Below are positions 24,563-40,217 of a stretch of DNA of 64,000 nt, in pieces (position 1 is the first letter of the stretch; every line of letters starts with the position of its first letter). The notes under the pieces are model-generated. The model was not told where the DNA came from and ran no database searches. It saw only the letters and a list, made by a program, of their open reading frames with translations. The stretch comes from Vicinamibacterales bacterium (GTDB taxonomy: Bacteria; Acidobacteriota; Vicinamibacteria; Vicinamibacterales; UBA2999): assembly GCA_036732565.1 (NCBI GenBank), contig DAINCF010000001.1, forward strand, positions 1,787-65,786, written 5' to 3'. The position numbers and the translations under genes are program-made.

Positions 24563-24800
24563 CTGTGCCTCCTGCGTTACCGCCGGCACACGGGCGAACT
24601 GTGCCGCCGTCAGGCTTTGCTTGAGCGATTCAGAGAAGGTTGGATTATCGCCTGAACGAGAAAGGCTGCGTCTGAACCTTTAGGGCGGAATGTCCCTACT
24701 GGGGGAACGGCAGTCAGGCTCGACGCCGTTCCGACATCGCCGTTGAATACGTTTGGCAGTCTCGGAGCGGCCCCGAGGATCTACATATGAGCGCGCGCTT

Positions 24801-25844: not shown

Positions 25845-26471
25845 TCAACGTGAGGCGATCAGTAGTCCACTTCCACCAGTGTCGGTGAGCTTCGCAATCT
25901 GGTCCGTTTGCAGTTGAAATGGCTCGCGCCGTCCTGTGAGGACATCCCGTCTGGTGTACGTCTGGCGCATCAATCCTGAATGCGAGTGCTGCGACGAATC
26001 GAGCAAGAGGTGCCCGAGCTCGTGGGCGATCACTTGGCCAACCATCCTCCCGAAGAGCGAGCGCACCGTTGGCTCACCCGCCTCAGTCATGCTCGCTCGC
26101 ACCAATGCCAAGACCGCTGCTGGCGAGATCACGATGACACGCCGCCAGGTCTTGCCAGCACGAAAGACGGCGCCGAGGGGGTGATCGGCAGGTCGTCCGC
26201 TTGCCGCTGATAGCTCGTCGTCTGCGCAGATCAGCTGAACGACCAGGCTTGGAGTGGTCTGTGCGAGGGCGTTGTCGGGCCACGCAAACGCGACTCCGTA
26301 CGGCGCCCACACTGCGCTGACTTCTCGGCGTGCCACTTGGAGCACACGATCACTGATTGTGCACGGTCCCATCGTGACGGTCACAGTCAACACGGAGCTC
26401 GTTGCGGCCCCCGTGATCGTGACGCTAGTGAGAAGAACCGCCACTATCAGGCACAGCGCGTTGCGCTTCAT
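25845..26471 (-). CDS. Secreted HExxH protein (putative zinc metallopeptidase-like), family unknown
   Basis: Start MKRNALCLIVAVLL (GGAGGA SD, 26471) with a signal peptide. Contains VIAHELGHLLLDSSQHSH. Confidence 0.6.
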   Translation of the reverse strand: MKRNALCLIVAVLLTSVTITGAATSSVLTVTVTMGPCTISDRVLQVARREVSAVWAPYGVAFAWPDNALAQTTPSLVVQLICADDELSAASGRPADHPLGAVFRAGKTWRRVIVISPAAVLALVRASMTEAGEPTVRSLFGRMVGQVIAHELGHLLLDSSQHSHSGLMRQTYTRRDVLTGRREPFQLQTDQIAKLTDTGGSGLLIASR

Positions 26472-26796
26472 CGCTTCCTCCTGCGCCACTCAGGACGGAC
26501 GACAGAAGGAAGTTCGCGTGTGCAATTCCCGACGATGCTGGTGAGACTACATACGTCGAGTTCTGGAGTCTTCTGTGAGCGGGTGAGACCAACGTGCTAC
26601 CGCAGCCGACGAGATGGAATCCTGCTTCGCGGTCCGGATCTGGATTCTGCCGTTTCGTCCAAAGCAGTGCGTGTGGCAACAGTACGTCCTTCAACACCGC
26701 GTCGCGAGCCCAAGCCGTTGCAACGCCATTGTTGACGACGATGACGGCAAACGATCGACCGTTCACGTCCGCACGAAATGTCAGTCTGTTCGACAT
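26425..26796 (-). CDS. Hypothetical small protein (tentative)
   Basis: ATG 26796 preceded by GGAGGCGAGTC. The N-terminal ~80 aa (MSNRLTFRADVNGRSFAVIVVNNGVATAWARDAVLKDVLLPHALLW...) look protein-like. The C-terminal tail looks non-coding and overlaps the next gene by 47 nt. Confidence 0.3.
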   Translation of the reverse strand: MSNRLTFRADVNGRSFAVIVVNNGVATAWARDAVLKDVLLPHALLWTKRQNPDPDREAGFHLVGCGSTLVSPAHRRLQNSTYVVSPASSGIAHANFLLSSVLSGAGGSDEAQRAVPDSGGSSH

Positions 26797-26894: not shown

Positions 26895-29288
26895 TCAGCC
26901 AGCGAACATGCTTGCGCGTGCTGCCGCCGCCGCTGCTTCGGAAGCCGCTGCGGCCGCGCGTTCGGCTGACTGGACCGCGTCGTTGGCTTCTTGCTCCGCT
27001 CGCCGCGCGGATTCCTCGGTTGTCTTGACGAGATCGTTTGCCTGATCGCGCAGTTCGGAAATCGCGCGGGTCAGCTCGTCGCACTCGTCGCGGAGGCGCA
27101 CGATCTCCTCCTGAAGCCGTCGTGCTTCCTGCTCGTGATCGCTGCACTGCCGTTCGTGGTCTGCGGTGTCCTGCTCATGTTGTTGGGTCTTGCCGACAAG
27201 CTCTTCGCCCTGGTTTGCCGCATCCTGGATCTGACCGAGCAGTTGCGTCGACTCTTGTTCATGCGCGCCGCATTCCTGAACGAGGCGTTGTGCCTCGCTC
27301 GCATGCTCGCCGATCGTAGCGAGCTCCTTGTTGGCGTCGGCCACTGCTTGTTGGATTTCGCCGACGAGCGATGACGCTTCATCGGCGCTCGCCTCGATCC
27401 GGGATACGGTCTCATCGGCTCGAGCTGCGTGATCCTCTATTTGAGTAACCAGATCGCTGGCCGATTTGGCATGCTCGCTGGCCACCTCCGCGTGGCCCTC
27501 AGCGGTTGTGGCGTGTTGACCGGCGTCCCCAGCCTGTTGTTCGGCAATGCCCGCCTGCTGTTCCGCCGCCGACGCCTGCTGCTCGGCAACACCAGCGTGC
27601 TGCTGTGCCGTCGTTGCCTGCTCTTCGGCCACGCCCGCCTGTTGCTCGGCCGTCGACGCCTGCTGCTCCGCAGTGCTGGCGAACTGCTCTGCCACCGTCG
27701 CATGCTGTTCGGCAGTGCCGGCTTGCTCCGCCGCCGCATCGGATTGTTCCTGCGCGATGGATGCCTGTTGTTCGGCGGCCTGGGCCTGTTCCTCCGCGCG
27801 TCCAGCCTGTTGTTCTGCGGAGGCGGCATGAGTATCGGCAGCCGCTTCGTGTCGCTCCGCAGCACCCGCGTGTTGTTCGGCTACCGACGCGTGCTGCTCG
27901 GCCGCCGTCGCTTGCTGTTCCGCGGCCGTCGCTTGCAGCTCGGCCCCGCTCGCATGCTGCTCCGCGACACCGGCTTGTTGTTCTGCGAGGGTAGCCTGTT
28001 GCTCTGCCGCCGTGGCTTGCTGCTCGGCAGCGGTGGCCTGCTGTTCGGCGAGGCCGGCCTGTTGCTCCGCGGTCGTTGCCTGTTGTTCTGCAGCACTCGC
28101 TTGCTGCTCTGCGACGCCGGCGTGTTGCTCGGCCGCGCCGGCCTGCTGCTCCGCCGTGCCAGCGTGTTGTTCCGCGGTTCCGGCATGCTGCTCAGCGGCG
28201 GCACTCTGTTGCTCGGCCAACCCCGATGCCTGTTCTGCGCTAGCAGAGTGTTGTTCGGCTACCCCAACTTGTTGCTCAGCCGCACCCGCATGTTGTTCAG
28301 CACTCGTAGCATGCTGCTCCGCATCGCCCGAATGCTGCTGCGCCAGGCCAGCCTGTTGTTCCGCTTGGTCCGCCTGGTCTGCTGCCGCTTGCGCGCGCTC
28401 GGCCGCTGCCTCTGCCTGTTCGCCGGCCGATTCGGCATGCTCTTGTGCCTCGCGCGCGGCGTCCGCCGCGCTCTGACTGCTGTTGTTGGCATCCGCGGCG
28501 GCCTCTGCCGCACTCTCGCCATTGAACTGATCGGCCACATTCCCCTCCAACTCGGTTGAGCCAACGGTTCCTGAGGACAGTCCCGATGCGCTGCCTGCCG
28601 GCTGTTCGAATACCTTGAGGTCCCGGAGTAGGTCTTTCTCCCGTTGGTGCAGACGTTCGAGCTGACTCTCCATCTGACGCCGAGCGTCCAGCGTCTGCTC
28701 GCCGATTCGATCGACTTGTTCGAGATCGCCCACCAACCGGCGGTTGCCCTCGACGACGTCGCTGAGGGCTTTTCCGAGGCCCGTCACGGTGTCGAGTGGT
28801 CCGAAGTCCGCCTCGCCACCGCTCAGGCGGTCAGCTGTCTTCGCCAACTCGCCAATGCCTTGAGCGATCGGCGCCACGCCCGCGGCGTTCCCATCGAGAA
28901 TCTTGCCGAAGCCCTCGAGAGTGTTCCCTACCCCTTTGCTCGCGCTACCAAAGGCACCGTCACCTGCGCCTCCGAGCTTCAGCACTCCGGCGGCCTTGCC
29001 GAGGTCATCCTTCGCGTAGAGGAGGTCGATCCCATCTTGAACGACGCCGTAGGCGGCTTTGAGAGGTGGCACGCGGTCTCCGACAGCGGCGAAGGTTCCA
29101 TCGGCAACGCCTTTGATGATCTGCGCCCCAGATGAGATCATCCCTAACCTGGCGTCGCCGATACCCTCAGCCGACGACTGCTCGAGATCACCCATGACAC
29201 GTCGAATATCAGTGATGGCATTTCTCACTCGCTCGAGGTGCGCTTCGACATCCTGGGGTGTTCGTGGACGACTGTCGCTCATGGTCAT
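26895..29288 (-). CDS. 797-aa acidic repeat protein: Gly-rich N-terminal domain, 43 AEQ[Q/H]Axx heptads, C-terminal coiled-coil; no signal peptide
   Basis: ORF track protein. I parsed the repeat register by hand (aa 309-609). It lies 6 nt downstream of the J-like gene stop. Confidence 0.85.
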   Translation of the reverse strand: MTMSDSRPRTPQDVEAHLERVRNAITDIRRVMGDLEQSSAEGIGDARLGMISSGAQIIKGVADGTFAAVGDRVPPLKAAYGVVQDGIDLLYAKDDLGKAAGVLKLGGAGDGAFGSASKGVGNTLEGFGKILDGNAAGVAPIAQGIGELAKTADRLSGGEADFGPLDTVTGLGKALSDVVEGNRRLVGDLEQVDRIGEQTLDARRQMESQLERLHQREKDLLRDLKVFEQPAGSASGLSSGTVGSTELEGNVADQFNGESAAEAAADANNSSQSAADAAREAQEHAESAGEQAEAAAERAQAAADQADQAEQQAGLAQQHSGDAEQHATSAEQHAGAAEQQVGVAEQHSASAEQASGLAEQQSAAAEQHAGTAEQHAGTAEQQAGAAEQHAGVAEQQASAAEQQATTAEQQAGLAEQQATAAEQQATAAEQQATLAEQQAGVAEQHASGAELQATAAEQQATAAEQHASVAEQHAGAAERHEAAADTHAASAEQQAGRAEEQAQAAEQQASIAQEQSDAAAEQAGTAEQHATVAEQFASTAEQQASTAEQQAGVAEEQATTAQQHAGVAEQQASAAEQQAGIAEQQAGDAGQHATTAEGHAEVASEHAKSASDLVTQIEDHAARADETVSRIEASADEASSLVGEIQQAVADANKELATIGEHASEAQRLVQECGAHEQESTQLLGQIQDAANQGEELVGKTQQHEQDTADHERQCSDHEQEARRLQEEIVRLRDECDELTRAISELRDQANDLVKTTEESARRAEQEANDAVQSAERAAAAASEAAAAAARASMFAG
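27462..28364 (-). repeat. Intragenic tandem repeat, 43 x 21 bp (903 bp), with no indel in register
   Basis: Encodes AEQQAGL AQQHSGD AEQHATS ... ASEHAKS. Ala is at position 1 in 43/43 units and His at position 4 in 17/43. It generates spurious repeat ORFs in the other frames and on the other strand. Confidence 0.9.
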
Positions 29289-29294: not shown

Positions 29295-30104
29295 TCAATC
29301 GAGCTCGAGGGGGAGCGTCTTGTCCAGACGATCGACATCGAGTGACCAGATGCCTGTCTTCAGGAATGGCTCCGCATCGGCGTACTGGATCAGGAGGGCA
29401 TACGACAGCAAGCGGCCGTCCCAGTCGCGCCCGCGGCCGAGCCCCGAGTCGATCTGGGCTACTTCGTCCGGCTTCAGCGCCCATTCTGGGTAGCCGTAGC
29501 TTCCGCTGTGGGCGACGTGTAGCCCCGTCTTCACACTGGAATAGACGACCGCCGCGGCAAGAATCCGTATGGATCCCCGCGATCGGTTGCGGACGCGCAT
29601 CCGCTCGTCAACGAACAGCGCATTGAGCTCCGAGATGGTCGATTCCGCCGCTGCCAGGCGCTGTTGTGCCTGTTGCACGGTAGCGGACAGATCGGCGCGT
29701 GCCTGCCGCTCACGCCACCACCCAAGACCCATGGCGGTGACGAGGGTCAGCAGCACTGCCGAGATGACGCCCGCAACGAGTGTCGATCGGGGAAGCACGT
29801 CGGGCGCGGCCACCGCCTCTTGTCCACGGGCGGTTGGAGCTGTGAATGGTGTCGCATTCATTGCAAGTGCTGGCTCATTTGCGGGAAGGTCGATGTTGCG
29901 ATCGGCCTCTCCTGGTGCGAGGAGCTCGCACGCGTCTCGCAAGTCCTGCAACGCCTTCTGGTAGGTGCGTCGCAGCGTCGGTGTCGGAGCGTTGGTCAGC
30001 CGGATGTGCGTGTCGGTGTGCAGCGCCTGAAACTGTCGGCGGACCTCCGCGCGGGCAGCATCGCGTTGGCATCCGAGGAGGGCCTCAGCCGCTTCGCGTG
30101 TCAT
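29295..30104 (-). CDS. Single-pass membrane protein with an N-terminal J-like domain (HPD replaced by H-I-R) and a ~130-aa extracytoplasmic C-terminal domain
   Basis: EALLGCQRDAARAEVRRQFQALHTDTHIRLTNA...YQKALQDLRDACELL aligns by eye to the J-domain helices II-III. TM segment STLVAGVISAVLLTLVTAMGLGWW. ATGA overlap with the Hsp70 stop. Confidence 0.7.
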   Translation of the reverse strand: MTREAAEALLGCQRDAARAEVRRQFQALHTDTHIRLTNAPTPTLRRTYQKALQDLRDACELLAPGEADRNIDLPANEPALAMNATPFTAPTARGQEAVAAPDVLPRSTLVAGVISAVLLTLVTAMGLGWWRERQARADLSATVQQAQQRLAAAESTISELNALFVDERMRVRNRSRGSIRILAAAVVYSSVKTGLHVAHSGSYGYPEWALKPDEVAQIDSGLGRGRDWDGRLLSYALLIQYADAEPFLKTGIWSLDVDRLDKTLPLELD

Positions 30105-31615
30105 AAATGGTTCACCGGCGTGGCGCGCACTAACGCGTGCTGGCGGGCAAGTGCCGCTGCTGCACTGGCATCGTCGCGCGAAAAGAGCTGCTCGAGCTCG
30201 AGTCCGGACTCGGCATCGTAGGCGCTCACCGCGACCGTAGAGTCGGCGCGCACTTCGATGGTGACGTCGACCGGATAATTGAGTCTCGGTCGTGCCAAGG
30301 GGCCCACCACCAAATCGCCCAAGTAAGTTTCTTGGCCATCGCCTGGCCGAAACTGCACGATCTCGAGCACGATCCGTTCTTGCTCGGCGCGAGTTGTGAA
30401 GAAGGTCCGAGTCGCGCGGCCTGGTAACGGTACGTTCTGGGGGACCACGGCATCGAACGTGACGCGGCCAGTGTGCGGGTCGACGACGCGCACGCCGGTG
30501 GCGTGGCCGCTAACGCCTCGCAGCGTGGGTGGCAGGTCGAGTGCCTCAGCGTCTCCCGACAATTGCAACGCGTGAATAGCCGCCCCGAACGCCACGGCCT
30601 TCCCGGGCTCGTGATAGCGCACACGCTCGGGGAAAAGGCGTTCCATCCGGTCCCGAATCGCTGGCACCATCGACGAACCGCCGACGAGCAATACGTCATC
30701 GATGTCATCGGGTTCGAGGCGGGCCGATCGAACGCATTCGAGCGCCAGCGCCTGACAGCGATCGAGGAGCGGGCCAATCTGTTCGTCGAATGCATACACC
30801 GCGATTCGCACGTCCAGCGGCAAGTCGCCCATCAGCAGGGTGCGCCGGACGACAGGCCGGGTAGTCGCGCAAAGCTCAATCTTGAGTGCCTCTGCTGCGC
30901 GCCGCAGATCCAGCAGCGTACGGGCAGTACTGGACAAACGCGTGCGGAGCCGCTCGTCGCACCCCGACAACAGTAATGCGGCAACCGCGTCGTCGAGTTC
31001 CTTACCCCCGAGATCGGCGACGCCAGCCTTGGACAGCACAGTAAGGCCGGAGCTTTGACAGGCAACCACGGATACGTCGCAGGTGCCCCCGCCCCAGTCG
31101 AACACCAACACGACGCGATCATCTGCTCCAACGGTGGCGCCGTAGTGAAGAGCAGCGGCCACCGGTTCCTCGACCAGATGCATCACCGGCAGATCGGCCA
31201 TCATGGCGGCGGCAATCACCGCTCTCCGCTGCGGGTCCGTGAAGTGTGCAGGAACTGTGATGACCCCACCATCGATCTGGGCATCACCCGATGTCTCTGC
31301 GTCGTAGCGGAGTTTCTTGAGGATGAGAGCCGCGAGCGCTTCCGCGCGCCAACCGGCTCCCCGGGCGTCGAAGCAGATCGGCTCGGCGGTGCCGAGGCTG
31401 CGCTTGAAGTATCGCAGCGCGACGAGATGCGGCTCTTCGTCAAGGAGCGCTTCCGCCGTGCGCCCGACATATGCGGCCTGACTCGCGAAACACACAACCG
31501 ATGGCGTGTGAAACAGGTCCTGCTGCACGCAGTCCGGCAGGAGCAACGGCGTGCCGTCGGCGTTGACGCGGGCCACGAGCGCATAGCTATTGCCCAGATC
31601 GATGCCGATTCTCAT
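30101..31615 (-). CDS. Atypical Hsp70-family ATPase (504 aa; NBD plus beta-sandwich SBD, no helical lid)
   Basis: IGIDLGNSYALVARV, VITVPAHFTDPQRRAVIAAA, EPVAAALHYG, VLVFDWGGGTCDVSVV, LLVGGSSMVPAIR and KAVAFGAAIHA match the Hsp70 NBD signatures. The protein ends about 120 aa after the NBD. Confidence 0.9.
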   Translation of the reverse strand: MRIGIDLGNSYALVARVNADGTPLLLPDCVQQDLFHTPSVVCFASQAAYVGRTAEALLDEEPHLVALRYFKRSLGTAEPICFDARGAGWRAEALAALILKKLRYDAETSGDAQIDGGVITVPAHFTDPQRRAVIAAAMMADLPVMHLVEEPVAAALHYGATVGADDRVVLVFDWGGGTCDVSVVACQSSGLTVLSKAGVADLGGKELDDAVAALLLSGCDERLRTRLSSTARTLLDLRRAAEALKIELCATTRPVVRRTLLMGDLPLDVRIAVYAFDEQIGPLLDRCQALALECVRSARLEPDDIDDVLLVGGSSMVPAIRDRMERLFPERVRYHEPGKAVAFGAAIHALQLSGDAEALDLPPTLRGVSGHATGVRVVDPHTGRVTFDAVVPQNVPLPGRATRTFFTTRAEQERIVLEIVQFRPGDGQETYLGDLVVGPLARPRLNYPVDVTIEVRADSTVAVSAYDAESGLELEQLFSRDDASAAAALARQHALVRATPVNHL

Positions 31616-33240
31616 GACCGTTGTGCCCCGATTTCCCAGCCGGCGATCACCTGTTTCAGCTCGCCGCGCAGCTCCAAGAGGGTCGTTCCGGCGATCTCGC
31701 GGGCGCGAGCCGTCGTGGCGTACCGACGCTCCAGGGCGTCGTAGGCTTGCACCTGGCGCTGCGCTCGCTGGCGGGCGGCATCCGCGTCCGCGGTCTGGCG
31801 GACGACACGCTCTCGAATTGCCTGCTCGAGGTCGGCGATCAACGTTGGTAGTTCATCTTGCAGATGCTGCGCGACGGTCGCCACCCACAAGCGTTGGAAC
31901 TCCTGTAGAATTCGACGTCCTTCTCCCCGTAGGTGCTCACGAGCTCGTTCACGCTCTCGAGCCTCACCCTCCGCCCGCTCCCGCCGGACCGTCCTCATCG
32001 CTTGCAACGCGCCAAGCGAGAGGAGCAGCACGCTGAGCGGCACCATCACGTCACGGAATGAACGGAGGAACGAGAAGCCGAACGCCGACAACAGCATCAC
32101 GACGACCATCTGATAGCGGCGGGCTATGGTGAGATATTCGAAGAACCCCGGCCGTGGCAATTCGCCTTGGTAATGTCTCGAGAAGATCACTGTGATGTCG
32201 AGGATCCGATGCAACCGCCCGTCAGACAGATGCCGAAGCGGCGTTGGGGTCCTCGCGCCTTTGCCAGTTGGCAGTCGATCGGCCGCCTGACGCTGAATCA
32301 CTCGGATCAGATCGTGAGTCGCGCGGAGATCCGCGAGGCCGTGTGCAAGAAGCGCTCGTCGTATGTCTCGCAGAAGGTTCTGCTCATCAGTCGGAGCGAG
32401 CCGAGTTGTCGTTGTGCGAGAGCGCGCTTCGCGGTCGAGGCGGACGACAGCATTGACTGCTTGCTCGACCTCGCTCCACAGCTCGGCCCCTGGCAACGAC
32501 GCCATGTGAAGGCGCTCCTCGAGTCCACGGACGAGCTCCACGGTCTGCCGCTGAAGGGACGTCCGCAGTTCGGCGACCGCCTCGACGCCAACGGCTTGAA
32601 GAGTTGGCGCGGAGCGGTGCTGCAGCAGGCCTCGGCGAGTGCGAAGCGACTGTAAGTCTCGGTGAACGTCGGCGGTGAAGGCAGCCAGCAGCGCTGATGC
32701 AGCGTCAGCGATGGCGACCGCTTGCAAAGCATTCCATGTGGCCGAGTCGACGTGCGACGCCCATGCAGCGACGAGGGTCTCCGCGGTGTGGTCGGCCTCG
32801 AGCCAACAGGTATTCCATGCGTGGTCGGTGAGAAGACGGCGGACCGTGGGAGTCTCGGCAGCGCAGCCGCTTACGAGGACGAACGGCCGTTGGTCAATCG
32901 CGCCTGCGACAGTAGGCGATGGTGGGTCGCTGGGCGCCACCCACGCCAGAATCGGCGCAACCGTCCGGCCTGCCACGGTGACACTCACCGCCGGCGATGC
33001 TAGCCGCAGGTGAATCAGTCGTCCGGCAGCCTCGATGGTGTCAGGTGTCGTCGCCTCAGACGTGAGTATTTCGACCTCGCTGACCGGCGACTCACAGGTC
33101 CGAATGAGGTGCTCGGCTGCGGCCCGCAGTGCCGTTTGGGAGCGCGGACCGCTCTCGGCGACCAGTCGGGAGAACTCTTCCAGCCACTGTCTCAGCGTTC
33201 GCTGTGCTGTCACGGCACCGCCACGGGCGACCGTTCTCAC
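31612..33240 (-). CDS. 542-aa membrane protein, no recognisable domain (TM hairpin plus C-terminal Arg/Glu-rich coiled-coil)
   Basis: GTGA and ATGA overlaps with both neighbours. Hydrophobic hairpin MVVVMLLSAFGFSFL...MVPLSVLLLSLGALQAM. C-terminus RRERAEGEARERERAREHLRGEGRR. Confidence 0.8.
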   Translation of the reverse strand: MRTVARGGAVTAQRTLRQWLEEFSRLVAESGPRSQTALRAAAEHLIRTCESPVSEVEILTSEATTPDTIEAAGRLIHLRLASPAVSVTVAGRTVAPILAWVAPSDPPSPTVAGAIDQRPFVLVSGCAAETPTVRRLLTDHAWNTCWLEADHTAETLVAAWASHVDSATWNALQAVAIADAASALLAAFTADVHRDLQSLRTRRGLLQHRSAPTLQAVGVEAVAELRTSLQRQTVELVRGLEERLHMASLPGAELWSEVEQAVNAVVRLDREARSRTTTTRLAPTDEQNLLRDIRRALLAHGLADLRATHDLIRVIQRQAADRLPTGKGARTPTPLRHLSDGRLHRILDITVIFSRHYQGELPRPGFFEYLTIARRYQMVVVMLLSAFGFSFLRSFRDVMVPLSVLLLSLGALQAMRTVRRERAEGEARERERAREHLRGEGRRILQEFQRLWVATVAQHLQDELPTLIADLEQAIRERVVRQTADADAARQRAQRQVQAYDALERRYATTARAREIAGTTLLELRGELKQVIAGWEIGAQRS

Positions 33241-34364
33241 CGCCGTCCCTCGTCATGACTGGTGACACGCACGCACCGAAAGCCGACGCTGTCGTCGCCC
33301 TGCTCGGGATTCAGGCGCGCGCGGGCGGACGCACGAAGACTAGACGCGATCGAGCGCCATGATCCGCCCCGTGCAACGCGATGGGCCGTGACCGTTGCAT
33401 CGGAGCTGACATACCAACCATCGACCCATTCCCACACGTTGCCTGCCATGTCGTAGAGACCCCAGTCGTTGGGCGCGAACGAGGCTACAGGCGCGGTGTG
33501 TTCCCAGCGATCGGCTGGCGGTGTGCCGAAGCTATTGGCGTGCGCTGTCAGGAATTGATCGCCCCAGGGGTACACAGCATCCACATTGCGGCCGCGCGCC
33601 GCGTACTCCCATTCCGCTTCGGTCGGCAGCCTGGCGCGAATCGAGGCACAGAACTCCTGCGCGTCGGCCCAGCGCGCGTTCACGACAGGCTGGTCGGGTC
33701 GCGTACTCCATGGCGGTTGTGGTGGCGTCGCCCGCCGGCGCGAAGCCGCGAACTCGCTGAACTGTTGCAGCGTCACTTCGGTGCGCATGATGTCGAAAGC
33801 GACGTCGATCGCGACCGCTCGACGAGGGCGCTCATCGGCGAGGCAGCTCGCATCGGTTGGAACACACCCCATCGCCACCGCGCCCGTCCCGACTCTGCGC
33901 CATGGCGTGGTAGCGAATGACTGTGCCCGCTCTTTGATGTCTTCGAGCGCAGCGGCTTCGAGATCGCGAGCCATGGTCTCTGCCGTGACTGTGGCGATGT
34001 CATCCTGCAGATCCAGTCGCACCAGCAGGGCCTGGCTCTCCTCGACGTCTACCGTCAGCTCGCGCCGGACCTTGGCGATTTGGCTCAGGACGATCACGAC
34101 ATGCGAACCGGCTGCGACAGGTATCTCGCGTGGTGTGTCCGCGACCGCCACGCCCGCGTCCTGCCCATCGATCCAGACTCGGCACGGCGCATCGCTGAGA
34201 ATGACGAGGCGACTGGCATGTTCGGCTGGCGGCGGCCCCCGACGCCGCTTCGTCACGTCCTGGACGTTCGGAGCTCGAGGCTTCGGCTTCGGCGGTGCCA
34301 CTTGCTCGGCCAGAAGAGTCGCGGCCATGAGCGTGGCCAGTAGGAACGTCGACAGCGATCGCAC
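33237..34364 (-). CDS. Secreted FGE/SUMF1 (formylglycine-generating-enzyme-fold) domain protein with a PEGA-like N-terminal domain
   Basis: Signal peptide MRSLSTFLLATLMAATLLA. LVILSDAPCRVWIDGQDAG is PEGA-like. RLPTEAEWEYAARG, NVWEWV and RVARGGSW are FGE-sulfatase motifs. Confidence 0.8.
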   Translation of the reverse strand: MRSLSTFLLATLMAATLLAEQVAPPKPKPRAPNVQDVTKRRRGPPPAEHASRLVILSDAPCRVWIDGQDAGVAVADTPREIPVAAGSHVVIVLSQIAKVRRELTVDVEESQALLVRLDLQDDIATVTAETMARDLEAAALEDIKERAQSFATTPWRRVGTGAVAMGCVPTDASCLADERPRRAVAIDVAFDIMRTEVTLQQFSEFAASRRRATPPQPPWSTRPDQPVVNARWADAQEFCASIRARLPTEAEWEYAARGRNVDAVYPWGDQFLTAHANSFGTPPADRWEHTAPVASFAPNDWGLYDMAGNVWEWVDGWYVSSDATVTAHRVARGGSWRSIASSLRASARARLNPEQGDDSVGFRCVRVTSHDEGRR

Positions 34365-34370: not shown

Positions 34371-35519
34371 TCACTTTTGAACCCAATCGCTCACGAGAAA
34401 CGACAGGCCCTGCAGATAGTCATCCGGTGCACAGTCGCGACACTCGAGCTCGACCGCCGCTCGCACGGTCCCATCCTCGACGCCTGTCAATCGGAGCGTG
34501 ATCAAACTGATCGTTCCGGTGGTTCGAAGTGTGCCGAATGCCAAGGCACTTGCGTTCGCCATGCGCCCGAGTTCCGCGGCACTCCGCGAGTCGGTAATGC
34601 CGAAGTTCTGAAACTGCGCCTCTTGAAGCAGCTCTTTGATGCGCTTGCGCTCGACGATCGACAGACCGGCGGCTGACAATTTGACGGCAAGCGCGCTCTC
34701 GAGCATCTCACGCAAGTCGCCCGCTTCCATCTCGAACCCAACTACCGCGACCGGTTGCTGGGCGAGCGCTTCGAGACGCAGTGGTTCGGTGACCTTGACC
34801 GTGAATTCGGCGATGGAGTACGGGTTGGCGCTGAGGTGCCGCTTCGTTCCCCCACTCTCTCCTGTGACCTCAGCGGCATAGAAGACACCGCCGACCGAGA
34901 AGCCACTCTCATACAGGTCGGTTCCCGATCCCCTGGCGAGCGGCGTGAGGTGCTCGAGCTTGCCGCTTCTGGTGTTGTACGCGCGGACTTCGTGACGCCG
35001 AAGCTGTAGTTCTTGGCCAAGCACCCAGGCGTAGTCGCCAGAGGGTGACAGTCCGATCGATTCCGGCTTGAGTATGCCGAGGTCGATTGATTTGATCTCG
35101 GCACCGGACTTCGGATTTCGGACCGACAGCGAGTATTGACGCTGGACTGCCTCAGGCCTCAGGCTTCCCGGGGTGAAGAGTGCGCTCGTCGCGACCGCCT
35201 CTTGAGCGATCGCGATCAGGATCTGCGACCGGCCGCGATTGATCGCGGCCAGCCGCGCTCGGGTCACCCCGCCTGCGATCGGCACTCGGTACAACTCGCG
35301 CCCCGTCTGAGCTCGTGCGATCCAGTGCTCGGTCACGAGATATCGCTCGTCGCCGCGAGCATCGTCGAACACACATGGGTCCCGGCGTACTTCGCATGCT
35401 TGCAGACGCTCACCCGACGGCTGTCGGCCAGCCCTGACAATCAGATCCCCCGCAGAAGCGGAGTGAGAGTGGAGACAGACCGCTACTGCCAACGCCTGAA
35501 CGCCGGTGCGAATGTCCAT
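34371..35519 (-). CDS. Secreted protein: unknown N-terminal ~230 aa plus a C-terminal CsgG/FlgO/TolB-N-like module
   Basis: Signal-like N-terminus. The C-terminus VAVVGFEMEAGD...SIVERKRIKELLQEAQFQNFG...LGRMANASALAFGTL follows the CsgG-like pattern. This is by-eye recognition. Confidence 0.65.
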   Translation of the reverse strand: MDIRTGVQALAVAVCLHSHSASAGDLIVRAGRQPSGERLQACEVRRDPCVFDDARGDERYLVTEHWIARAQTGRELYRVPIAGGVTRARLAAINRGRSQILIAIAQEAVATSALFTPGSLRPEAVQRQYSLSVRNPKSGAEIKSIDLGILKPESIGLSPSGDYAWVLGQELQLRRHEVRAYNTRSGKLEHLTPLARGSGTDLYESGFSVGGVFYAAEVTGESGGTKRHLSANPYSIAEFTVKVTEPLRLEALAQQPVAVVGFEMEAGDLREMLESALAVKLSAAGLSIVERKRIKELLQEAQFQNFGITDSRSAAELGRMANASALAFGTLRTTGTISLITLRLTGVEDGTVRAAVELECRDCAPDDYLQGLSFLVSDWVQK

Positions 35520-35537
35520 GGTCTGCCTCCCTTCCCT

Positions 35538-36101
35538 CTAGAACAGCACTCGCAGACCCACGCGCGTTCGCAGGGATCCGCTCGAGCCGAGGGTATCGAC
35601 CGGTCCGCCGTACGCTCCTTCGACGAAAAGAGAAGCGTTCTCTTTGATCGCGGTCTGAACGCCAAGTTTTCCGAGGACCTCGGGCTTGATGTCGACGCCT
35701 TCCGTCTGACTCAGCGGTGTACTGACCTCACCGCCGAAGTACGCGCTCGATGCCTTTTGCGGCGTGAAGTAGAAAGCGGCGCTACCGTTTGTGTAGAAGA
35801 GAGGTGTCGACCCCCGCTTGACCGTTCCGCTGCCGCTGAGGCCGAACGACAGCACGAAGCGGTTGGTGACGAACCGACCGAAGTCAACGGCCCCGAAGAT
35901 GTTGGTCGATGTCGACGTTCCGCCCTCGAAGCCGCCGACACCCTCGGTGCTTGAAATCTGTGTAAACGTTGCAAAACTGAGACTCAGTTGCTTCGCGCCC
36001 TTGCGCCCGACGGTACGTGCCCCCTCGGCCGACTGGCCGAATGCAGGGGCAGCCGCGACGCTGACGAAAAGAGCAATCAAGACCGGCAGATACTTCCGCA
36101 T
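35538..36101 (-). CDS. Small outer-membrane beta-barrel protein
   Basis: MRKYLPVLIALFVSVAAAPAFGQ signal (GGAGG SD; the ORF extends to 36122). Alternating beta-strand pattern and a C-terminal ...GLRVLF. Confidence 0.75.
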   Translation of the reverse strand: MRKYLPVLIALFVSVAAAPAFGQSAEGARTVGRKGAKQLSLSFATFTQISSTEGVGGFEGGTSTSTNIFGAVDFGRFVTNRFVLSFGLSGSGTVKRGSTPLFYTNGSAAFYFTPQKASSAYFGGEVSTPLSQTEGVDIKPEVLGKLGVQTAIKENASLFVEGAYGGPVDTLGSSGSLRTRVGLRVLF

Positions 36102-36142
36102 GTTGGACCTCCGTGTGCTCACGCGTTGATGGGTGCGAACGC

Positions 36143-36625
36143 CTAGAAACGCGAAACGCGGCGGCGTTCGATCTCCTTGACCAACTGCTCGCCCTTGATG
36201 CTGATGCGCACGCGATAGCGCGTGCTGTTGGGCTCGAAGCCGGCCGAGTCGATGTCATAGTTGCGAATCACGGCATTCACGCTGGTCTCGACGACGCTCC
36301 TCACGTCTTGGTTGTTCATCACCATCGTGTTGCCGCGAACTTCGGATTGAACCTTCTGTGCCAGGTCGGCTTGCGCGAGACTGAGCGCCGACTGACGTGC
36401 CAACCCTTCGTTCTTGTGATCGAAGATGCCTTCGCCGCCAATCACCGTGGTTTCGAACACGCGGCGCAGCTCGCTGAGAATGCGATCGTCTTTCCGGAGG
36501 CTTTCGTCGGCGACCGCGCCGCCGGGTGTGTAGACGGTGACTTTCTCCTGAGTGCTGGCGCACCCGGTAGCGCATGCGAGGGTCAGAACCGCCGCCACTT
36601 CTCTCCACCAACTCTTCGTCCTCAT
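36143..36625 (-). CDS. Lipoprotein, LPP20/FlgP-like (tentative family)
   Basis: Lipobox region AAVLTLACATGCAST. The pattern ARQSALSLAQADLAQKVQSEVRGNTMV...YRVRISIK resembles the LPP20 family. Confidence 0.6.
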   Translation of the reverse strand: MRTKSWWREVAAVLTLACATGCASTQEKVTVYTPGGAVADESLRKDDRILSELRRVFETTVIGGEGIFDHKNEGLARQSALSLAQADLAQKVQSEVRGNTMVMNNQDVRSVVETSVNAVIRNYDIDSAGFEPNSTRYRVRISIKGEQLVKEIERRRVSRF

Positions 36626-36653
36626 GACTGCCTCCTACGGTTGGATTGAGCTC

Positions 36654-37988
36654 TCACATCACGGTCATGCGGACGATGAACTTGTCCGCGCTCACTAGTT
36701 GCACTGGCCGTCCGGCCGCCTGAATACAGGTCGCCACGAGCTCGTCTTGCGGCAGCAGGACGTAGCCGGACAGCATCTCGAGTTCCGCCTGTGGGTGACT
36801 GGCGGTCGGCACGCTCGCAAATCGCACCGAATCGATGCCTTCGAGAGTTTCGAGACCAGCCTTCAGCCGTTGCGCGATCGAGAGGTCGACGTTCGCGAAC
36901 GTGACGCGCGTAACTCGCGGCCGGGAGGCGAGGATGCTCGGAATCTTCCAAGCCAGCGCGGCTGCGAACTCGGACGCGACGCCTTGCAGCGAAGATGTGA
37001 TGGCGCCGAGCGCGCTGGTATGCGCCTTCGTCACGCTGCGGCTGAAGGCCTCGATGATGTAACCGTTCGACACCACCATCGCTTTCGCTGAGGCGACGGT
37101 CGTTGCCGAGGCGAACTCCACGTCTTGCGGTTTGATTCGCTGCCAGGACAACTGCACGTTGCCTGTGAGGAGCATGTCAGCGCCGACCGCTCGCGCTACT
37201 GCGACCGCATCCAACGTGATGCCCTGACGTGCCCGTTCGAGCTGCGCCGCATTCACCGATCCGGCGGCCATCACGTCGTCGGAAGTCATCACCGGGTATC
37301 CGAATGCACCGAAGGCTTGGGCGATGGCGGCCTCGGCATTGCGCATCGTGCCCGAGGTCGTAGAGGCCGGAGTGTGTCCCCATGGCGTCGATCCGGACGC
37401 GCTCTGCGTCTCCGGCGGAGGTGCATTGAAGGCCGCCTCGGGAAGCAACACCAACAGTCGAGGGTTGCCCATGACGTCGAGATAGAGTTTGAGACCGTCG
37501 AGCTCACTGGCGGCCTCGCCGGTCGACTGCACGACCATCGCGTCGATGCGCACCTCGTACTTCGGCGGCGTCTCCTCGACGAGGCCTTCTCCCACAAGCT
37601 CGTACGACTTGACGAACCCTTTCGAGCGAGACGCGACGATGTCGCTGACTGCCCGAACGTTGCGCACGAGCGTCAGACGGCCGATCTCGACTCCGGCGCC
37701 GCGTGCCACGGCTTCGGCGTAGGCTGACTGGAGCGCTGCCTGACGAGCGGCGGACACATTGCCTCCAAACACCGTGGCCGATCCGATGACGAACACTCTT
37801 TCCGCTGGCCGAGGCTCGTTCGCGAGCGCTCGGACTTCGCCGACGCCCTGTCGCCCGGGCTGGGGCTCGACTCCCTGCACCGTCGGCGTACGAGGTGGCA
37901 CGGGTGTGACTTGTCCCGCAGCGGGAGAGGTGGTGCCGAGCAGTGTTGGCACCAGCAGCGTTCCAAAGAGCAGAGCGATCTTGATCAT
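36654..37988 (-). CDS. Secreted multi-domain protein, FlgT-like architecture (LPP20-like N-terminal domain plus a TolB-N/CsgG-like middle domain); tentative
   Basis: Signal peptide MIKIALLFGTLLVPTLLG. The N-terminal domain is AARQAALQSAYAEAVARGAGVEI...YEVRIDAMV. The middle domain is PRLLVLLPE...ARAVGADMLLTGNV. Confidence 0.6.
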   Translation of the reverse strand: MIKIALLFGTLLVPTLLGTTSPAAGQVTPVPPRTPTVQGVEPQPGRQGVGEVRALANEPRPAERVFVIGSATVFGGNVSAARQAALQSAYAEAVARGAGVEIGRLTLVRNVRAVSDIVASRSKGFVKSYELVGEGLVEETPPKYEVRIDAMVVQSTGEAASELDGLKLYLDVMGNPRLLVLLPEAAFNAPPPETQSASGSTPWGHTPASTTSGTMRNAEAAIAQAFGAFGYPVMTSDDVMAAGSVNAAQLERARQGITLDAVAVARAVGADMLLTGNVQLSWQRIKPQDVEFASATTVASAKAMVVSNGYIIEAFSRSVTKAHTSALGAITSSLQGVASEFAAALAWKIPSILASRPRVTRVTFANVDLSIAQRLKAGLETLEGIDSVRFASVPTASHPQAELEMLSGYVLLPQDELVATCIQAAGRPVQLVSADKFIVRMTVM

Positions 37989-38483: not shown

Positions 38484-39227
38484 CTAGTGAGATTCGAACA
38501 TCGACGTTCCGGTCACGCCCTGTTCCTCGAGGTTACGGCGCAAGGAACGCAGCATGCGATCGAATCGGCGATACAGGACTTTCGGATCGGTTCCGAACGT
38601 GTTCGCGAGGTCTTGCACCGTTCGCCGATCTCGAAAGCGCAGCTGAATCAGGTGGAGGTCCCCGACCGGCAGCCGCTCCAAGGCGGCGGAGAGGCTGGCA
38701 CGAGCGCGTAACCTCCGGCAGCGTCGCTCGCGTGCCGCCAGCGGATCGGCAAATGGCGTTTCACCAACTTCGCCAACGACGTCGATCGACACTCTGCGGC
38801 GTCGTTGGCGGGGCGGCAGGAGCTGTTGCAGCTGCCGAAGGTCAGCGCGTGAGGGTGCGTTCGCGCCTCGGCTGACAATCTCGATCGCTTCGTCCGCGGT
38901 GAATCCATCTCGCGAGACCAGGCGCTCGAGGCGAATGGCGGGTTCCCCTAGCCTGGTCGCCGCCACTGTCGGCCGCCACTTCCCATATGTGCTGTTCTGC
39001 CAATCAAGCAGCATTCGCAGGACCACGACATTGAGGTAACGCCTCAGTGAGCTTCGACCGTCGAAGCGGCTAAACACGTCGTATTCGCGCTCGACGACGC
39101 GCAAATGGACGGTTTGCGCGAAATCTTCCGCGTCTTCTCGGGACATCCGTCGGGAACGGGCAACTTCTCGAATCACGCAAGAAAGGAGCGCCATTTGGTC
39201 CGGTAACGGGGAGATTGGTGTGCTCAT
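38484..39227 (-). CDS. Sigma-70-family (ECF-like) sigma factor with a ~90-aa insertion between regions 2 and 4; first gene of the operon
   Basis: Region 2: EDAEDFAQTVHLRVVEREYDVF...LNVVVLRMLLDW. Region 4: LPVGDLHLIQLRFRDRRTVQDLANTFG. ATG 39227 has a GAGGG SD and a TGATG junction with the upstream small ORF. The ORF track start is GTG 39260. Confidence 0.75.
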   Translation of the reverse strand: MSTPISPLPDQMALLSCVIREVARSRRMSREDAEDFAQTVHLRVVEREYDVFSRFDGRSSLRRYLNVVVLRMLLDWQNSTYGKWRPTVAATRLGEPAIRLERLVSRDGFTADEAIEIVSRGANAPSRADLRQLQQLLPPRQRRRRVSIDVVGEVGETPFADPLAARERRCRRLRARASLSAALERLPVGDLHLIQLRFRDRRTVQDLANTFGTDPKVLYRRFDRMLRSLRRNLEEQGVTGTSMFESH

Positions 39228-39394
39228 CACGCCCTCGCTGGTGTGGGGTTTCGCCAACACTCCATAAACGGAGACGCAGTGAAAACCGAACAGCTGGCGG
39301 TGCGGCGAGCGCAGTCGACAGACTCCTGGGCAGGTGCCGTCCGCCGTTGTCGTGGAGAGAACGTGCAGAGGATCGGAGCGAATCGAAACACCAT
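39227..39394 (-). CDS. Candidate 55-codon upstream ORF translationally coupled to the sigma gene (tentative)
   Basis: AGGAGG sits 7 nt before ATG 39394. Its TGA stop shares its A with the sigma ATG (TGATG). Peptide: MVFRFAPILCTFSPRQRRTAPAQESVDCARRTASCSVFTASPFMECWRNPTPARA. Hand-counted GC3 is only about 64%, so coding status is unsure. Confidence 0.3.
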   Translation of the reverse strand: MVFRFAPILCTFSPRQRRTAPAQESVDCARRTASCSVFTASPFMECWRNPTPARA

Positions 39395-39518
39395 CGTGCG
39401 ACCTCCTACCCTCAGACGCGCGAGACGCCCGTGAAGTAGATCGTGTGGTGTCGCGACGCCTGACACCCTGAGGTCGTGTCCCGACCGTGAATGAAGCGAA
39501 GGGGCCCTCGTGGCGTGC

Positions 39519-39550
39519 GGAACTGCTTGGGTTTATCGGCGATCGCGTAC
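39519..39550 (+). promoter_or_regulatory. Candidate ECF-type promoter (GGAAC ... CGCGTA) upstream of the ECF sigma gene at 39594
   Basis: GGAAC at 39519-39523, followed 16-20 nt later by GCGAT/CGCGTA. Position is 45-75 nt before the start. Motif-only call. Confidence 0.25.
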
Positions 39551-39593
39551 GACGGTCTTCCCTGTATTATTCGAGCCAACAGTCCTCCACCGC

Positions 39594-40163: not shown

Positions 40164-40217
40164 GCCGTCTATTGTGTGTCCTGGTTGAGCTGTTATCATC
40201 TGCGCGGAACAGAGCTG

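What the first reader, a model, noticed from the sequence alone, without database searches (positions are those of the whole stretch)
26895..29288. 797-aa cytoplasmic protein with 43 perfectly phased AEQ[Q/H]Axx heptads (903 bp of 21-bp tandem repeat)
SEEN: from aa 309 to 609 the sequence parses into 43 consecutive 7-aa units with no insertion or deletion (AEQQAGL, AQQHSGD, AEQHATS ... ASEHAKS). Position 1 is Ala in 43/43 units. Position 2 is mostly Glu and position 3 mostly Gln. Position 4 alternates Gln and His (17/43 His), a single-nucleotide CAG/CAC difference. Positions 6-7 are variable small residues.

The repeat tract has almost no basic residues, so it is strongly acidic and His-rich. 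A Gly-rich ~270-aa N-terminal domain and a Cys-containing coiled-coil C-terminus flank it. There is no signal peptide.

INFERENCE: the tract may be an Ala-zipper or single-alpha-helix ruler/filament, or a His/Glu metal- or pH-responsive scaffold. It is a possible Hsp70 client. The 21-bp repeat could expand or contract by slippage or recombination.
Basis: seen in the sequence. Interest (0 to 1): 0.7.

Follow-up and report, generated by a model that had tools for sequence, protein, structure and literature searches.

The report
Acidic coiled-coil rod with histidine core
The repeat is real and forms the middle of an unbroken rod of 77 seven-residue repeats (predicted length about 80 nm) with alanine and histidine/glutamine in its core; the protein belongs to an undescribed family of soil Acidobacteria that is always encoded beside a membrane-linked, truncated Hsp70-like ATPase.

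Summary
The ORF is on the minus strand (26895-29288, 797 aa). Residues 309-609 parse into 43 gap-free heptads, with Ala 43/43 at position 1 and His 17/43 at position 4.

The register runs without a break from aa 260 to the C-terminus: 77 heptads and no proline. In the C-terminal part, positions 1 and 4 carry Ile/Ala/Cys and Leu/His. The repeat core is therefore Ala at position a and Gln/His at position d. All 24 rod His sit at d and all 3 Cys at a.

The repeat units are saturated at synonymous sites, and the longest exact DNA repeat is 16 nt. The tract is therefore old and selected at the protein level. Assembly collapse and slippage are unlikely.

Orthologues of 798 and 817 aa keep the tract. 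More distant members have 35-40 heptads. All full-length members share a tail ending in [FY]-A-G.

In every locus long enough to judge, the gene lies beside a lidless Hsp70-like ATPase, two membrane proteins and secreted proteins with a PEGA-like module, some also carrying an FGE-sulfatase domain.

A single-alpha-helix reading is rejected. Sensitivity to pH or metal is plausible but untested. Function is unknown. No family or paper describes this protein.

The parts
26895..29288 (-). Whole ORF with stop codon. 797 aa, 82 kDa, pI 4.4, net charge -90.
   Evidence: GC3 is 0.67, like the neighbouring operon genes. Orthologues are 59% identical.
28605..29288 (-). N-terminal head, aa 1-228. An orphan all-alpha domain rich in Gly and Ala (conserved KGvADGtF, LKLGGAGDG, APIAQGxGxLAK).
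   Evidence: phmmer against 1.84 billion representatives gave 5 hits. There is no significant Pfam, NCBIfam or PADLOC match. The AF2 model is helical but of low confidence, pLDDT 55. Foldseek against the PDB found nothing below E 0.2.
28512..28604 (-). Linker, aa 229-259. Rich in Gly and Ser, variable in length, AF2 pLDDT below 50.
   Evidence: The non-heptad indels between orthologues (-1 and -9 aa) fall here, plus -3 aa at the N-terminus.
27462..28511 (-). Central rod, aa 260-609. 50 heptads with Ala at position 1 (a) and Gln/His at position 4 (d).
   Evidence: Net charge is -53. Gly in the rod is confined to position 6 (f). Indels against the orthologue are 7, 14 and 7 aa.
26898..27461 (-). 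C-terminal rod, aa 610-797. 27 heptads in the same register, with a = Ala/Ile/Cys, d = Leu/His and e = Ala/Val.
   Evidence: AF2 pLDDT is 70-83 and the model is helical. There are weak SMC and tropomyosin periodicity matches.
27261..27272 (-). C673-G-A-H676: Cys at a followed by His at d.
   Evidence: Conserved in the L003 orthologue as CGAH.
27135..27146 (-). C715-S-D-H718: a second Cys(a)/His(d) pair. A third Cys(a) is C736, at 27081-27083.
   Evidence: The motif RQCSDHEQE is identical in L003. All 3 Cys are at position 1.
26898..26957 (-). Conserved tail AAAAASEAAAAAARASMFAG.
   Evidence: The tail ends RASMFAG (window, L003), RASMYAG (P0004), RASRYAG (L012) and RANYFAG (L010).
29295..30104 (-). 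269-aa neighbour. It has a conserved N-terminal helical module, one transmembrane segment, a coiled coil and a beta-rich C-domain. Six nt separate its stop from the target's start codon.
   Evidence: It is conserved next to the Hsp70 gene in L003, L010 and L012, and fused to an FHA domain in L007 and L013.
30101..31615 (-). Lidless Hsp70-like ATPase, 504 aa.
   Evidence: Pfam HSP70 E 1e-65, covering profile positions 2-492 of 599. It scores far below the DnaK and HscA equivalog cut-offs. The subfamily of about 505-509 aa is common in Vicinamibacteria.
31612..33240 (-). 542-aa protein with a transmembrane hairpin and coiled coils. It is the constant partner of the Hsp70-like gene.
   Evidence: No Pfam match. 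Homologues lie immediately upstream of the Hsp70 gene in L003, L007, L010, L011, L012 and L013.
33237..34364 (-). Secreted protein: signal peptide, PKPKPR motif, PEGA-like module and FGE-sulfatase (C-type-lectin fold) domain.
   Evidence: Pfam E 7e-49. The N-terminal module recurs in proteins flanking other family members.
34371..37988 (-). Four envelope proteins of 382, 194, 160 and 444 aa. All have signal or lipoprotein-type N-termini. They show weak FlgO/CsgG, FlgT_N and LipL46 similarity.
   Evidence: They are syntenic in L003, L009 and JGI 3300043331.
38484..39260 (-). 258-aa sigma-like protein upstream of the operon.
   Evidence: 56% identical and syntenic in L003. The corresponding gene in the JGI contig has Sigma70_r4_2.

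Best explanation
The gene encodes a cytoplasmic fibrous protein with three parts:
- an orphan helical head (aa 1-228);
- a short flexible linker;
- one uninterrupted 77-heptad alpha-helical coiled-coil rod (aa 260-797, about 80 nm if straight) that ends in a conserved ...AAAAAAR-ASMFAG tail.

The register continues into a conventional C-terminal zipper with Ile/Ala at a and Leu at d. That fixes position 1 (Ala) as a and position 4 (Gln/His) as d.

The central 50 heptads therefore have a small, polar and presumably weak core: a ladder of Ala layers and Gln/His layers. This part is probably held in register by the conventional C-terminal zipper. The two Cys(a)-x-x-His(d) pairs may help, but that is inference.

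Shown here: the register, its composition and conservation, protein-level selection, and the recurrent gene neighbourhood.

Inferred:
- The chains form a parallel, in-register homo-oligomer.
- The His ladder makes zippering depend on pH or metal ions.
- The rod is a scaffold, spacer or client of the membrane-anchored lidless Hsp70-like module (542-like TM protein, Hsp70-like ATPase, 269-like TM protein). That module is itself linked to secreted envelope proteins with a PEGA-like module, with or without an FGE-sulfatase domain.
For: - The heptad parse is confirmed and extends to 77 units.
- Hydrophobic residues in the C-terminal part fall on positions 1, 4 and 5 of the same register in three proteins.
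- 24 of 24 rod His are at position 4, 3 of 3 Cys at position 1, and 62 of 77 a positions are Ala.
- There is no Pro in 538, 552 and 273 rod residues of three members, and 22 of 29 rod Gly are at the exposed f position.
- Identity between units is 0.83-0.89 at codon positions 1-2 of the conserved codons but 0.36 at position 3.
- Orthologues of 798 and 817 aa keep the tract. Rod indels are 7, 14 and 7 aa, and 19 of 24 His are conserved.
- The AF2 model is all-helical, with pLDDT 70-83 in the C-terminal rod.
- The gene adjoins the Hsp70-like module in the window, L003, JGI 3300043331, L010 and L012, and very probably in L009+L002.
- Flanking proteins of P0004 share the PEGA-like module.
Against: - No oligomer model or experiment exists. 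The AF2 monomer has low confidence (mean pLDDT 57) and leaves aa 324-387 as coil.
- A core of Ala plus Gln/His with net charge -53 may not zip at all under physiological conditions.
- Gln at the exposed c position is as conserved as the core positions, and the simple model does not explain this.
- Related Hsp70 modules (L007, L013, L011) work without any rod protein, so the rod is an accessory.
- One N-domain homologue (P0006) has a signal peptide.
- The function of the whole operon is unknown.
Confidence: 0.5

Rival explanations
1. The tract is an intrinsically disordered, polyanionic spacer (an entropic bristle or tether). On this reading the heptad periodicity is only a record of old duplications.
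For: The tract has net charge -53, Gly at 18 of 43 position-6 sites, and no large hydrophobic residue in the core. AF2 gives pLDDT 31-45 and coil for aa 324-387.
Against: Synonymous sites between units are saturated, yet positions 1, 3, 4 and 5 stay fixed. The register is continuous into a canonical Leu/Ile zipper in three diverged proteins. There is no Pro in 273-552 rod residues. His is confined to one position, and Gly to the exposed f position.
Confidence: 0.13
2. The protein is exported. It would be a surface fibre or an effector delivered through the envelope proteins of the operon. Alternatively it is the membrane-active effector of an Hsp70-centred conflict (immunity) system in which the lectin-fold and PEGA proteins act as sensors.
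For: - Five genes of the operon encode secreted or lipoproteins.
- P0006 carries the same N-domain behind a signal peptide.
- In L011 the same Hsp70 pair is followed by other very acidic helical repeat proteins and a PEGA/Lcl_C protein.
- FGE-sulfatase-fold (FGS) and PEGA domains are listed as effector domains of chaperone-based conflict systems in PMC7159879.
Against: - The protein has no signal peptide, Tat motif or transmembrane segment.
- Hsp70 and its partners act in the cytoplasm.
- There is no PADLOC hit for any operon protein.
- The rod evolves at about the same rate as its operon neighbours: 59-64% identity, against 48-81% for the other operon proteins. It is not hypervariable.
- The systems described in PMC7159879 are built around GTPases or MoxR-vWA, which are absent here.
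Confidence: 0.15
3. The protein is a metal-storage or buffering protein, a His/Glu sponge.
For: The protein has 24 His plus about 100 acidic residues in the rod, and two CxxH motifs.
Against: His is only 3.3% of the protein and lies at core positions, not on the surface. No metal transporter or regulator sits in the conserved operon. Gln replaces His freely between orthologues, at 14 positions.
Confidence: 0.07
4. The feature is an artefact: a collapsed or chimeric assembly of a repeat, or a non-coding repeat that is really read on the other strand (ORF 27429-28559, +).
For: Short-read contigs L002 and L006 end inside the tract. The antisense ORF has GC3 of 0.85.
Against: The longest exact DNA repeat is 16 nt and no two units are near-identical. 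An independent 331-kb MAG contig carries a colinear 798-aa orthologue. The high antisense GC3 follows from sense codons that start with G or C: sense first-position GC is 0.86. The N- and C-terminal domains are in the same minus-strand frame.
Confidence: 0.02

Closest known systems
Tropomyosin (uninterrupted two-stranded coiled coil)
   Same: It has a long, acidic, Pro-free rod with an unbroken heptad register and many Ala in the core. It is the best, though non-significant, PDB sequence match, and the match rests on periodicity alone (E 0.03).
   Different: There is no homology. Tropomyosin has about 40 heptads with mostly Leu/Ala/Val cores and short Ala clusters. This protein has 77 heptads with Ala at 62 of 77 a positions and Gln/His at 50 of 77 d positions, plus a 228-aa head.
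Alanine-zipper and Alacoil motifs (E. coli Lpp-56 trimer; ROP- and ferritin-type antiparallel pairs). Recalled from my own knowledge.
   Same: Ala recurs every seventh residue in the core, which allows close helix packing.
   Different: Those motifs span a few heptads and their other core position is hydrophobic. Here there are 50 consecutive units with a polar d layer. Orientation and strand number are unknown.
Polar or 'detuned' coiled-coil cores: FtsLB (PMC8749076), the N@d ion-binding layers of trimeric autotransporter adhesins, and designed His3 metallo-coiled coils (PMC13262294)
   Same: Polar or His residues placed in core positions make stability or ligand binding tunable.
   Different: In those cases single layers or a few layers are polar. 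Here the ladder has 24 His and 26 Gln layers. No ligand is known.
Bacterial coiled-coil-rich cytoskeletal proteins (crescentin, FilP, Scy) and the Myxococcus gliding scaffold AglZ. Recalled from my own knowledge.
   Same: They share a head-plus-long-rod architecture. They are cytoplasmic and associate with envelope machines.
   Different: There is no sequence similarity. Those rods contain stutters or non-heptad repeats and hydrophobic cores. Self-assembly was not tested here.
Specialised Hsp70 with a membrane-anchored co-chaperone (E. coli HscC-DjlC), and the HSP70/GrpE themes in GTPase-centred conflict systems (PMC7159879)
   Same: An Hsp70 paralogue is encoded with dedicated membrane-bound partners.
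   Different: The Hsp70 here lacks the helical lid. The partner's N-module has no HPD motif and no significant J-domain similarity. No GrpE, GTPase or tubulin gene lies in the locus.

Membership tests
Single alpha-helix (SAH / ER-K) domain | Very high density of Glu with Lys/Arg, giving i to i+4 opposite-charge pairs | tested here: not met
   aa 309-609 contain 43 Glu and 4 Asp but only 1 Lys and 2 Arg.
Canonical heptad coiled coil | Unbroken 3-4 spacing of core positions, with hydrophobic residues at a and d | tested here: inconclusive
   Periodicity and register are met over 77 heptads, with no Pro. Hydrophobic a/d positions are met in aa 610-797. In aa 260-609 the core is Ala/Gln/His instead.
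Canonical heptad coiled coil | Two or more helices actually wound together (oligomeric state and orientation) | not testable with these tools
   Only monomer AF2 was available. It gave mean pLDDT 57 and a helical model.
Alacoil / alanine zipper | Ala or another small residue at the same core position in every heptad | tested here: met
   Ala is at position 1 in 62 of 77 heptads, including 50 consecutive ones.
Alacoil / alanine zipper | Antiparallel helix pair (Alacoil) or trimer (Lpp type) with reduced interhelix distance | not testable with these tools
   There is no multimer model or structure.
Contingency-type tandem repeat (slippage-prone) | Near-identical DNA units that allow strand slippage or unequal recombination | tested here: not met
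   Mean identity between units is 0.60 and the maximum is 19/21. The longest exact repeat is 16 nt. By contrast, the distant member P0004 has a young array of 42 bp x 8.2 copies at 86% matches.
Any curated protein family (Pfam, NCBIfam, PADLOC) | Score above the family threshold | tested here: not met
   There were no Pfam and no PADLOC hits. NCBIfam gave only SMC-type coiled-coil noise of 17-20 bits against cut-offs of 270-729.
New 'His-ladder rod' family (defined here) | Head domain, a heptad rod in continuous register to the C-terminus with Ala at a and His/Gln at d, and a tail ...R-A-[SN]-x-[FY]-A-G | tested here: met
   Window, L003, P0004 and L012-554 show all of these features. L010 shows the C-terminal part only. 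A second L012 gene shows the heptads without a head.
Hsp70 (neighbour, 30101-31615) | Actin-like nucleotide-binding domain plus beta substrate-binding domain | tested here: met
   Pfam HSP70 E 1e-65 over profile positions 2-492 of 599. The helical lid is absent. The protein is not an equivalog of DnaK or HscA: 205 bits against cut-offs of 648-822.
J-domain (N-terminus of the 269-aa neighbour) | HPD motif between helices II and III | tested here: not met
   The window has HTD, while L003 and L009 have YND and L010 has HND.
J-domain (N-terminus of the 269-aa neighbour) | Significant profile similarity to J-domains | tested here: inconclusive
   hhalign aligns the expected region, but with E 0.053 and probability 1%. 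There is no Pfam DnaJ hit at E up to 5.

The most novel reading that the evidence does not exclude
The nine-gene operon encodes a new envelope-associated machine, or conflict system, powered by a lidless Hsp70. In it the 80-nm His/Gln-core rod would be a switchable mechanical element. It would zip or unzip with cytoplasmic pH or metal ions, or by Hsp70 action, to set a distance, transmit a signal from periplasmic lectin-fold/PEGA sensors, or release the Gly-rich head domain.
Probability: 0.12. Interest if true: 0.8.

Novelty: new variant of a known kind. Interest (0 to 1): 0.55.

Why it matters
Long natural coiled coils almost always have hydrophobic cores and contain register breaks. This rod has 77 unbroken heptads, and about 50 of its core layers pair Ala with Gln or His. 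That would make it a natural test case for how polar, titratable cores behave over tens of nanometres. It would also be a ready-made scaffold for pH- or metal-switchable protein materials.

Biologically, the protein marks an uncharacterised module that is common in Vicinamibacteria, which are abundant soil Acidobacteria. The module joins a lid-less Hsp70 to membrane and envelope proteins. Working out the rod's role would show what this specialised Hsp70 does.

Tried and rejected
Searches that found little or nothing:
- The full-length homologue search was swamped by low-complexity words and gave one spurious hit.
- An exact-sequence look-up of the target and of the identical Hsp70 found no contig.
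- A scan of genome contigs with the N-domain found nothing.
- The metagenome scan returned only a fragment of the L003 species.
- A profile search with the N-domain alignment added nothing new.

Structure:
- AF2 models of the full protein and of the head were of low confidence.
- Foldseek against the PDB gave only generic helical bundles, all with E above 0.2.
- phmmer against the PDB gave only tropomyosin-type periodicity.

Families and literature:
- Pfam, NCBIfam and PADLOC have no family for the target, the 269-aa protein or the 542-aa protein.
- Rfam found nothing in 20-48 kb.
- Literature searches for Hsp70 with FGE-sulfatase or PEGA, for related gene neighbourhoods, and for the peptide motifs found no description.

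Ideas rejected:
- SAH domain: the tract has almost no basic residues.
- Slippage-prone repeat or assembly collapse: the DNA units are too diverged.
- The antisense ORF as the real gene: its high GC3 is a by-product of the sense codons.
- My first core assignment (position 5 as a, position 1 as d): the C-terminal registers of P0004 and the window show a = position 1 and d = position 4.
- Homology between the head domain and the acidic helical proteins of L011: about 3 bits, not significant.
Full report
OBSERVATION

The 797-codon ORF lies at the stated coordinates but on the minus strand, with ATG at 29288 and TGA at 26895-26897. Residues 309-609 divide into exactly 43 heptads without any insertion or deletion. 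Position 1 is Ala in 43/43 units. Position 2 is Glu in 36, position 3 is Gln in 34, position 4 is Gln in 24 and His in 17, and position 5 is Ala in 36. The tract has 47 acidic residues and 3 basic ones. Gln and His do not strictly alternate.

An ORF on the opposite strand (27429-28559, +) has a higher GC3 of 0.85. This is a by-product of sense codons that begin with G or C (Ala, Glu, Gln, His, Gly), because first-position GC in the sense frame of the tract is 0.86. The sense ORF has the same GC3 (0.67) as its operon neighbours.

THE PERIODICITY IS LARGER THAN REPORTED

Laid out in the same register, the protein has Ala at position 1 from aa 260 onward, which makes 50 consecutive units. The heptad frame then continues without a stutter to the last residue: 77 heptads, aa 260-797.

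In the C-terminal 27 heptads, hydrophobic residues fall on position 1 (Ala 12, Ile 7, Cys 3), position 4 (Leu 10, His 6) and position 5 (Ala 10, Val 7). Positions 6 and 7 carry none. The distant relative P0004 shows this most clearly, with Ile/Ala at position 1 and Leu/Met/Trp at position 4. Position 1 is therefore the a position and position 4 the d position.

Over the whole rod the a layer is Ala 62, Ile 7, Cys 3, and the d layer is Gln 26, His 24, Leu 10, Ala 7. All 24 His of the rod are at d and all 3 Cys are at a. The rod contains no Pro. Of its 29 Gly, 22 are at position 6, which is the exposed f position. Fourier power for Ala is 67 at period 3.5 and 12.5 at period 7.

The protein is 82 kDa with pI 4.4 and net charge -90. 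It has no hydrophobic segment (maximum 19-residue Kyte-Doolittle mean 0.97, in the poly-Ala tail), so it has neither a signal peptide nor a membrane anchor.

THE DNA REPEAT IS OLD, NOT UNSTABLE

The 43 DNA units are on average 60% identical. No pair reaches 20/21, and the longest exact repeat in the tract is 16 nt. In the four conserved codons, identity between units is 0.83-0.89 at codon positions 1 and 2 but 0.36 at position 3. All four Ala codons, both Glu codons, both Gln codons and both His codons are in use. The units are therefore saturated at synonymous sites and are kept alike by selection on the protein.

This leaves little substrate for slippage or for collapse in a short-read assembly. 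TRF accordingly finds only degenerate arrays. By contrast, the distant member P0004 has a young array of 42 bp x 8.2 copies at 86% matches.

RELATIVES

No curated family matches. An exhaustive phmmer search with the head domain against 1.84 billion representative proteins gave only five hits.

A Vicinamibacterales MAG (L003, a 331-kb contig) carries a colinear 798-aa orthologue with 59% identity. Identity is even along the protein: head 63%, tract 64%, C-terminal part 61%. Within the rod, the indels against the window protein are 7, 14 and 7 residues, so the register is preserved. That orthologue has 79 heptads. Nineteen of the window's 24 d-position His are His there too, and Gln/His exchanges occur at 14 positions. 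A JGI contig with the same gene order encodes an 817-aa protein at this position. A third close lineage survives as fragments (L002, L009).

Three more distant relatives were found:
- P0004: 506 aa, 35 heptads.
- The 554-aa protein of L012: 40 heptads.
- A C-terminal fragment in L010.

The two full-length ones have the same plan, and the fragment shows its C-terminal part. The plan is a head, a rod in continuous register with Ala at a and His at d, and a tail ending RASMYAG, RASRYAG or RANYFAG, against RASMFAG in the window. Heptad number is thus nearly constant in the window's clade (77-79 where it can be counted) but differs widely across the family.

STRUCTURE PREDICTION

AF2 on the monomer, with an alignment of only three sequences, is helical throughout. 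Confidence is low overall (mean pLDDT 57). It reaches 70-83 in the C-terminal rod, stays below 50 in the head, and a segment at aa 324-387 is left as coil. The head alone gives pLDDT 55, and Foldseek against the PDB finds nothing below E 0.2. The best PDB sequence matches are tropomyosins at E about 0.03, which reflects shared periodicity and not homology.

GENOMIC CONTEXT

The target is the last gene of a tightly packed minus-strand operon. From the upstream end it encodes:
- Four secreted or lipoproteins of 444, 160, 194 and 382 aa, with weak LipL46/FlgT_N and FlgO/CsgG similarity.
- A secreted protein with a PKPKPR motif, a PEGA-like module and an FGE-sulfatase domain (375 aa).
- A 542-aa protein with a transmembrane hairpin and coiled coils.
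- A 504-aa Hsp70-like ATPase that covers Pfam HSP70 positions 2-492 of 599 and so lacks the helical lid.
- A 269-aa single-pass membrane protein.
- The target itself, whose start codon lies 6 nt after the previous stop.

All nine genes, plus an upstream sigma-like gene, are syntenic in L003 and in the JGI contig.

The Hsp70-like subfamily (about 505-509 aa) is common in Vicinamibacteria and Thermoanaerobaculia. Its constant neighbour is the 542-like gene, and the 269-like gene usually follows. Rod-family genes appear with this module in different positions. They lie downstream of the 269-like gene in the window clade and in L012, where a second, head-less heptad gene follows. In L010 the rod gene lies upstream of the 542-like gene.

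Secreted proteins with the PKPKP/PEGA-like module, with or without an FGE-sulfatase or Lcl_C domain, also recur. They are found in L012 and L011, and on both sides of P0004.

Other versions of the module lack the rod. L007 and L013 carry an FHA fusion of the 269-like protein and a PDZ protein. L011 carries different, extremely acidic helical repeat proteins. The rod is therefore a recurrent accessory of this Hsp70 module, not part of its core.

The N-terminal module of the 269-aa protein looks like a J-domain, but it lacks the HPD motif and its profile similarity is not significant (E 0.053, probability 1%).

INTERPRETATION

The evidence best fits a cytoplasmic head-plus-rod protein whose rod is a continuous alpha-helical coiled coil.

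The conventional Ile/Leu C-terminal part probably sets the register and holds the chains together. This is inference. By the usual a = Ile, d = Leu rule it would favour a parallel dimer, but hydrophobic e positions leave higher-order states open.

The central 50 heptads, with Ala and Gln/His layers and a strong negative charge, should be only marginally stable. They place about 18 imidazoles, and in the C-terminal part two Cys-x-x-His pairs, on the bundle axis. Such a core could be tightened or loosened by protonation or by metal ligation. This is inferred from coiled-coil geometry, from designed His-site coiled coils (PMC13262294) and from functionally 'detuned' polar cores such as FtsLB (PMC8749076). 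It was not tested.

The conserved neighbourhood makes a physical or functional link to the lidless Hsp70 machine likely. Whether the rod is its client, its scaffold or its output cannot be decided here.

A single alpha-helix is excluded by composition. A metal sponge is unlikely, because His is 3.3% of residues, lies in the core, and is freely exchanged with Gln. An artefact is very unlikely. Two rivals remain open. One is a purely disordered acidic spacer. The other is an exported fibre or a conflict-system effector; FGS and PEGA domains are typical of the chaperone-based conflict systems described in PMC7159879.

NOVELTY

No curated family covers the protein. No paper in the searched library mentions the motif or an Hsp70 / FGE-sulfatase / PEGA neighbourhood of this kind. 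The protein is a coiled-coil fibrous protein, which is a known kind. It stands out for its unusually regular polar core and for an undescribed genomic partnership with a lidless Hsp70.

Noticed in passing
window 27429-28559 (+): A 376-aa antisense ORF across the repeat has GC3 of 0.85, higher than the real gene (0.67). This is a side effect of sense codons that all start with G or C. A GC3-based gene caller could pick the wrong strand.
   Followed up: yes
window about 21000-47500: Genes in this stretch have lower GC3 (0.55-0.78) than the flanks (0.80-0.89). Inside the stretch, the operon is bracketed by two Ser/Thr kinase-TPR genes (21245-23875 -, 40176-42713 +) and three ECF-type or sigma-like genes (23996-24589 -, 38484-39260 -, 39510-40163 +). 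This may be an acquired or separately regulated island.
   Followed up: partly
window 29907-30104 (-); L007 12072-13412 and 5272-5880; L010 3585-4409: The N-terminal module of about 65 aa in the 269-aa protein is strongly conserved (...LLG...A....VRR.Y..L..D.QIRLTNAPTP.L...YQK.LQ.L..ACE.LAPG). In other Vicinamibacteria it is fused behind FHA domains. It resembles a J-domain but has no HPD motif. It is an unnamed domain tied to this Hsp70.
   Followed up: partly
L011 9711-12887: Next to a related Hsp70-like gene lies a 1058-aa protein with net charge -171. It is built of 10-aa ELKEAEF-type repeats plus a Gly-rich helical C-domain. Three acidic apolipoprotein-like helical proteins and a PEGA-like/Lcl_C secreted protein follow it.
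   Followed up: partly
L012 10455-10679: A second gene directly after the 554-aa family member starts with A-x-Q-H heptads straight away and has no head domain. It is cut by the contig end. Some loci therefore encode two rod proteins.
   Followed up: partly
L002 1124-1126: The close relative P0002 has an in-frame TAA where a Gln codon (CAA) is expected at heptad position 6. The heptads continue in frame after it to the contig end. This is either a read error or a nonsense allele in that population.
   Followed up: partly
L007 7125-9995: The 542-like protein of this lineage (956 aa) has a long Ala/Pro/Lys-rich C-terminal extension with repeated KPNAAAAFQAKMAAMKAAREAGKAA units. It is basic, where the rod is acidic.
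   Followed up: no
window 26425-26796 (-): A 123-aa ORF with a GGAGG Shine-Dalgarno-like sequence 7 nt upstream starts about 100 nt after the target's stop. It has no Pfam match and is not conserved in L003. No convincing terminator lies between it and the target.
   Followed up: partly
window 25845-26489 (-): A 214-aa secreted protein contains an HELGH (HExxH) zinc-protease-type motif but matches no Pfam family. It is absent from the L003 locus.
   Followed up: no
window 34371-37988 (-): Four envelope proteins upstream in the operon show only weak, sub-threshold similarity to ring- or channel-forming families (FlgO/CsgG, FlgT_N, LipL46). They are 63-81% identical in L003. They might form an outer-membrane-associated assembly.
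   Followed up: partly
window 43008-47354 (+): A nitroreductase-family protein (389 aa) is followed by a 994-aa protein with no family match. Both lie just beyond the second kinase.
   Followed up: no
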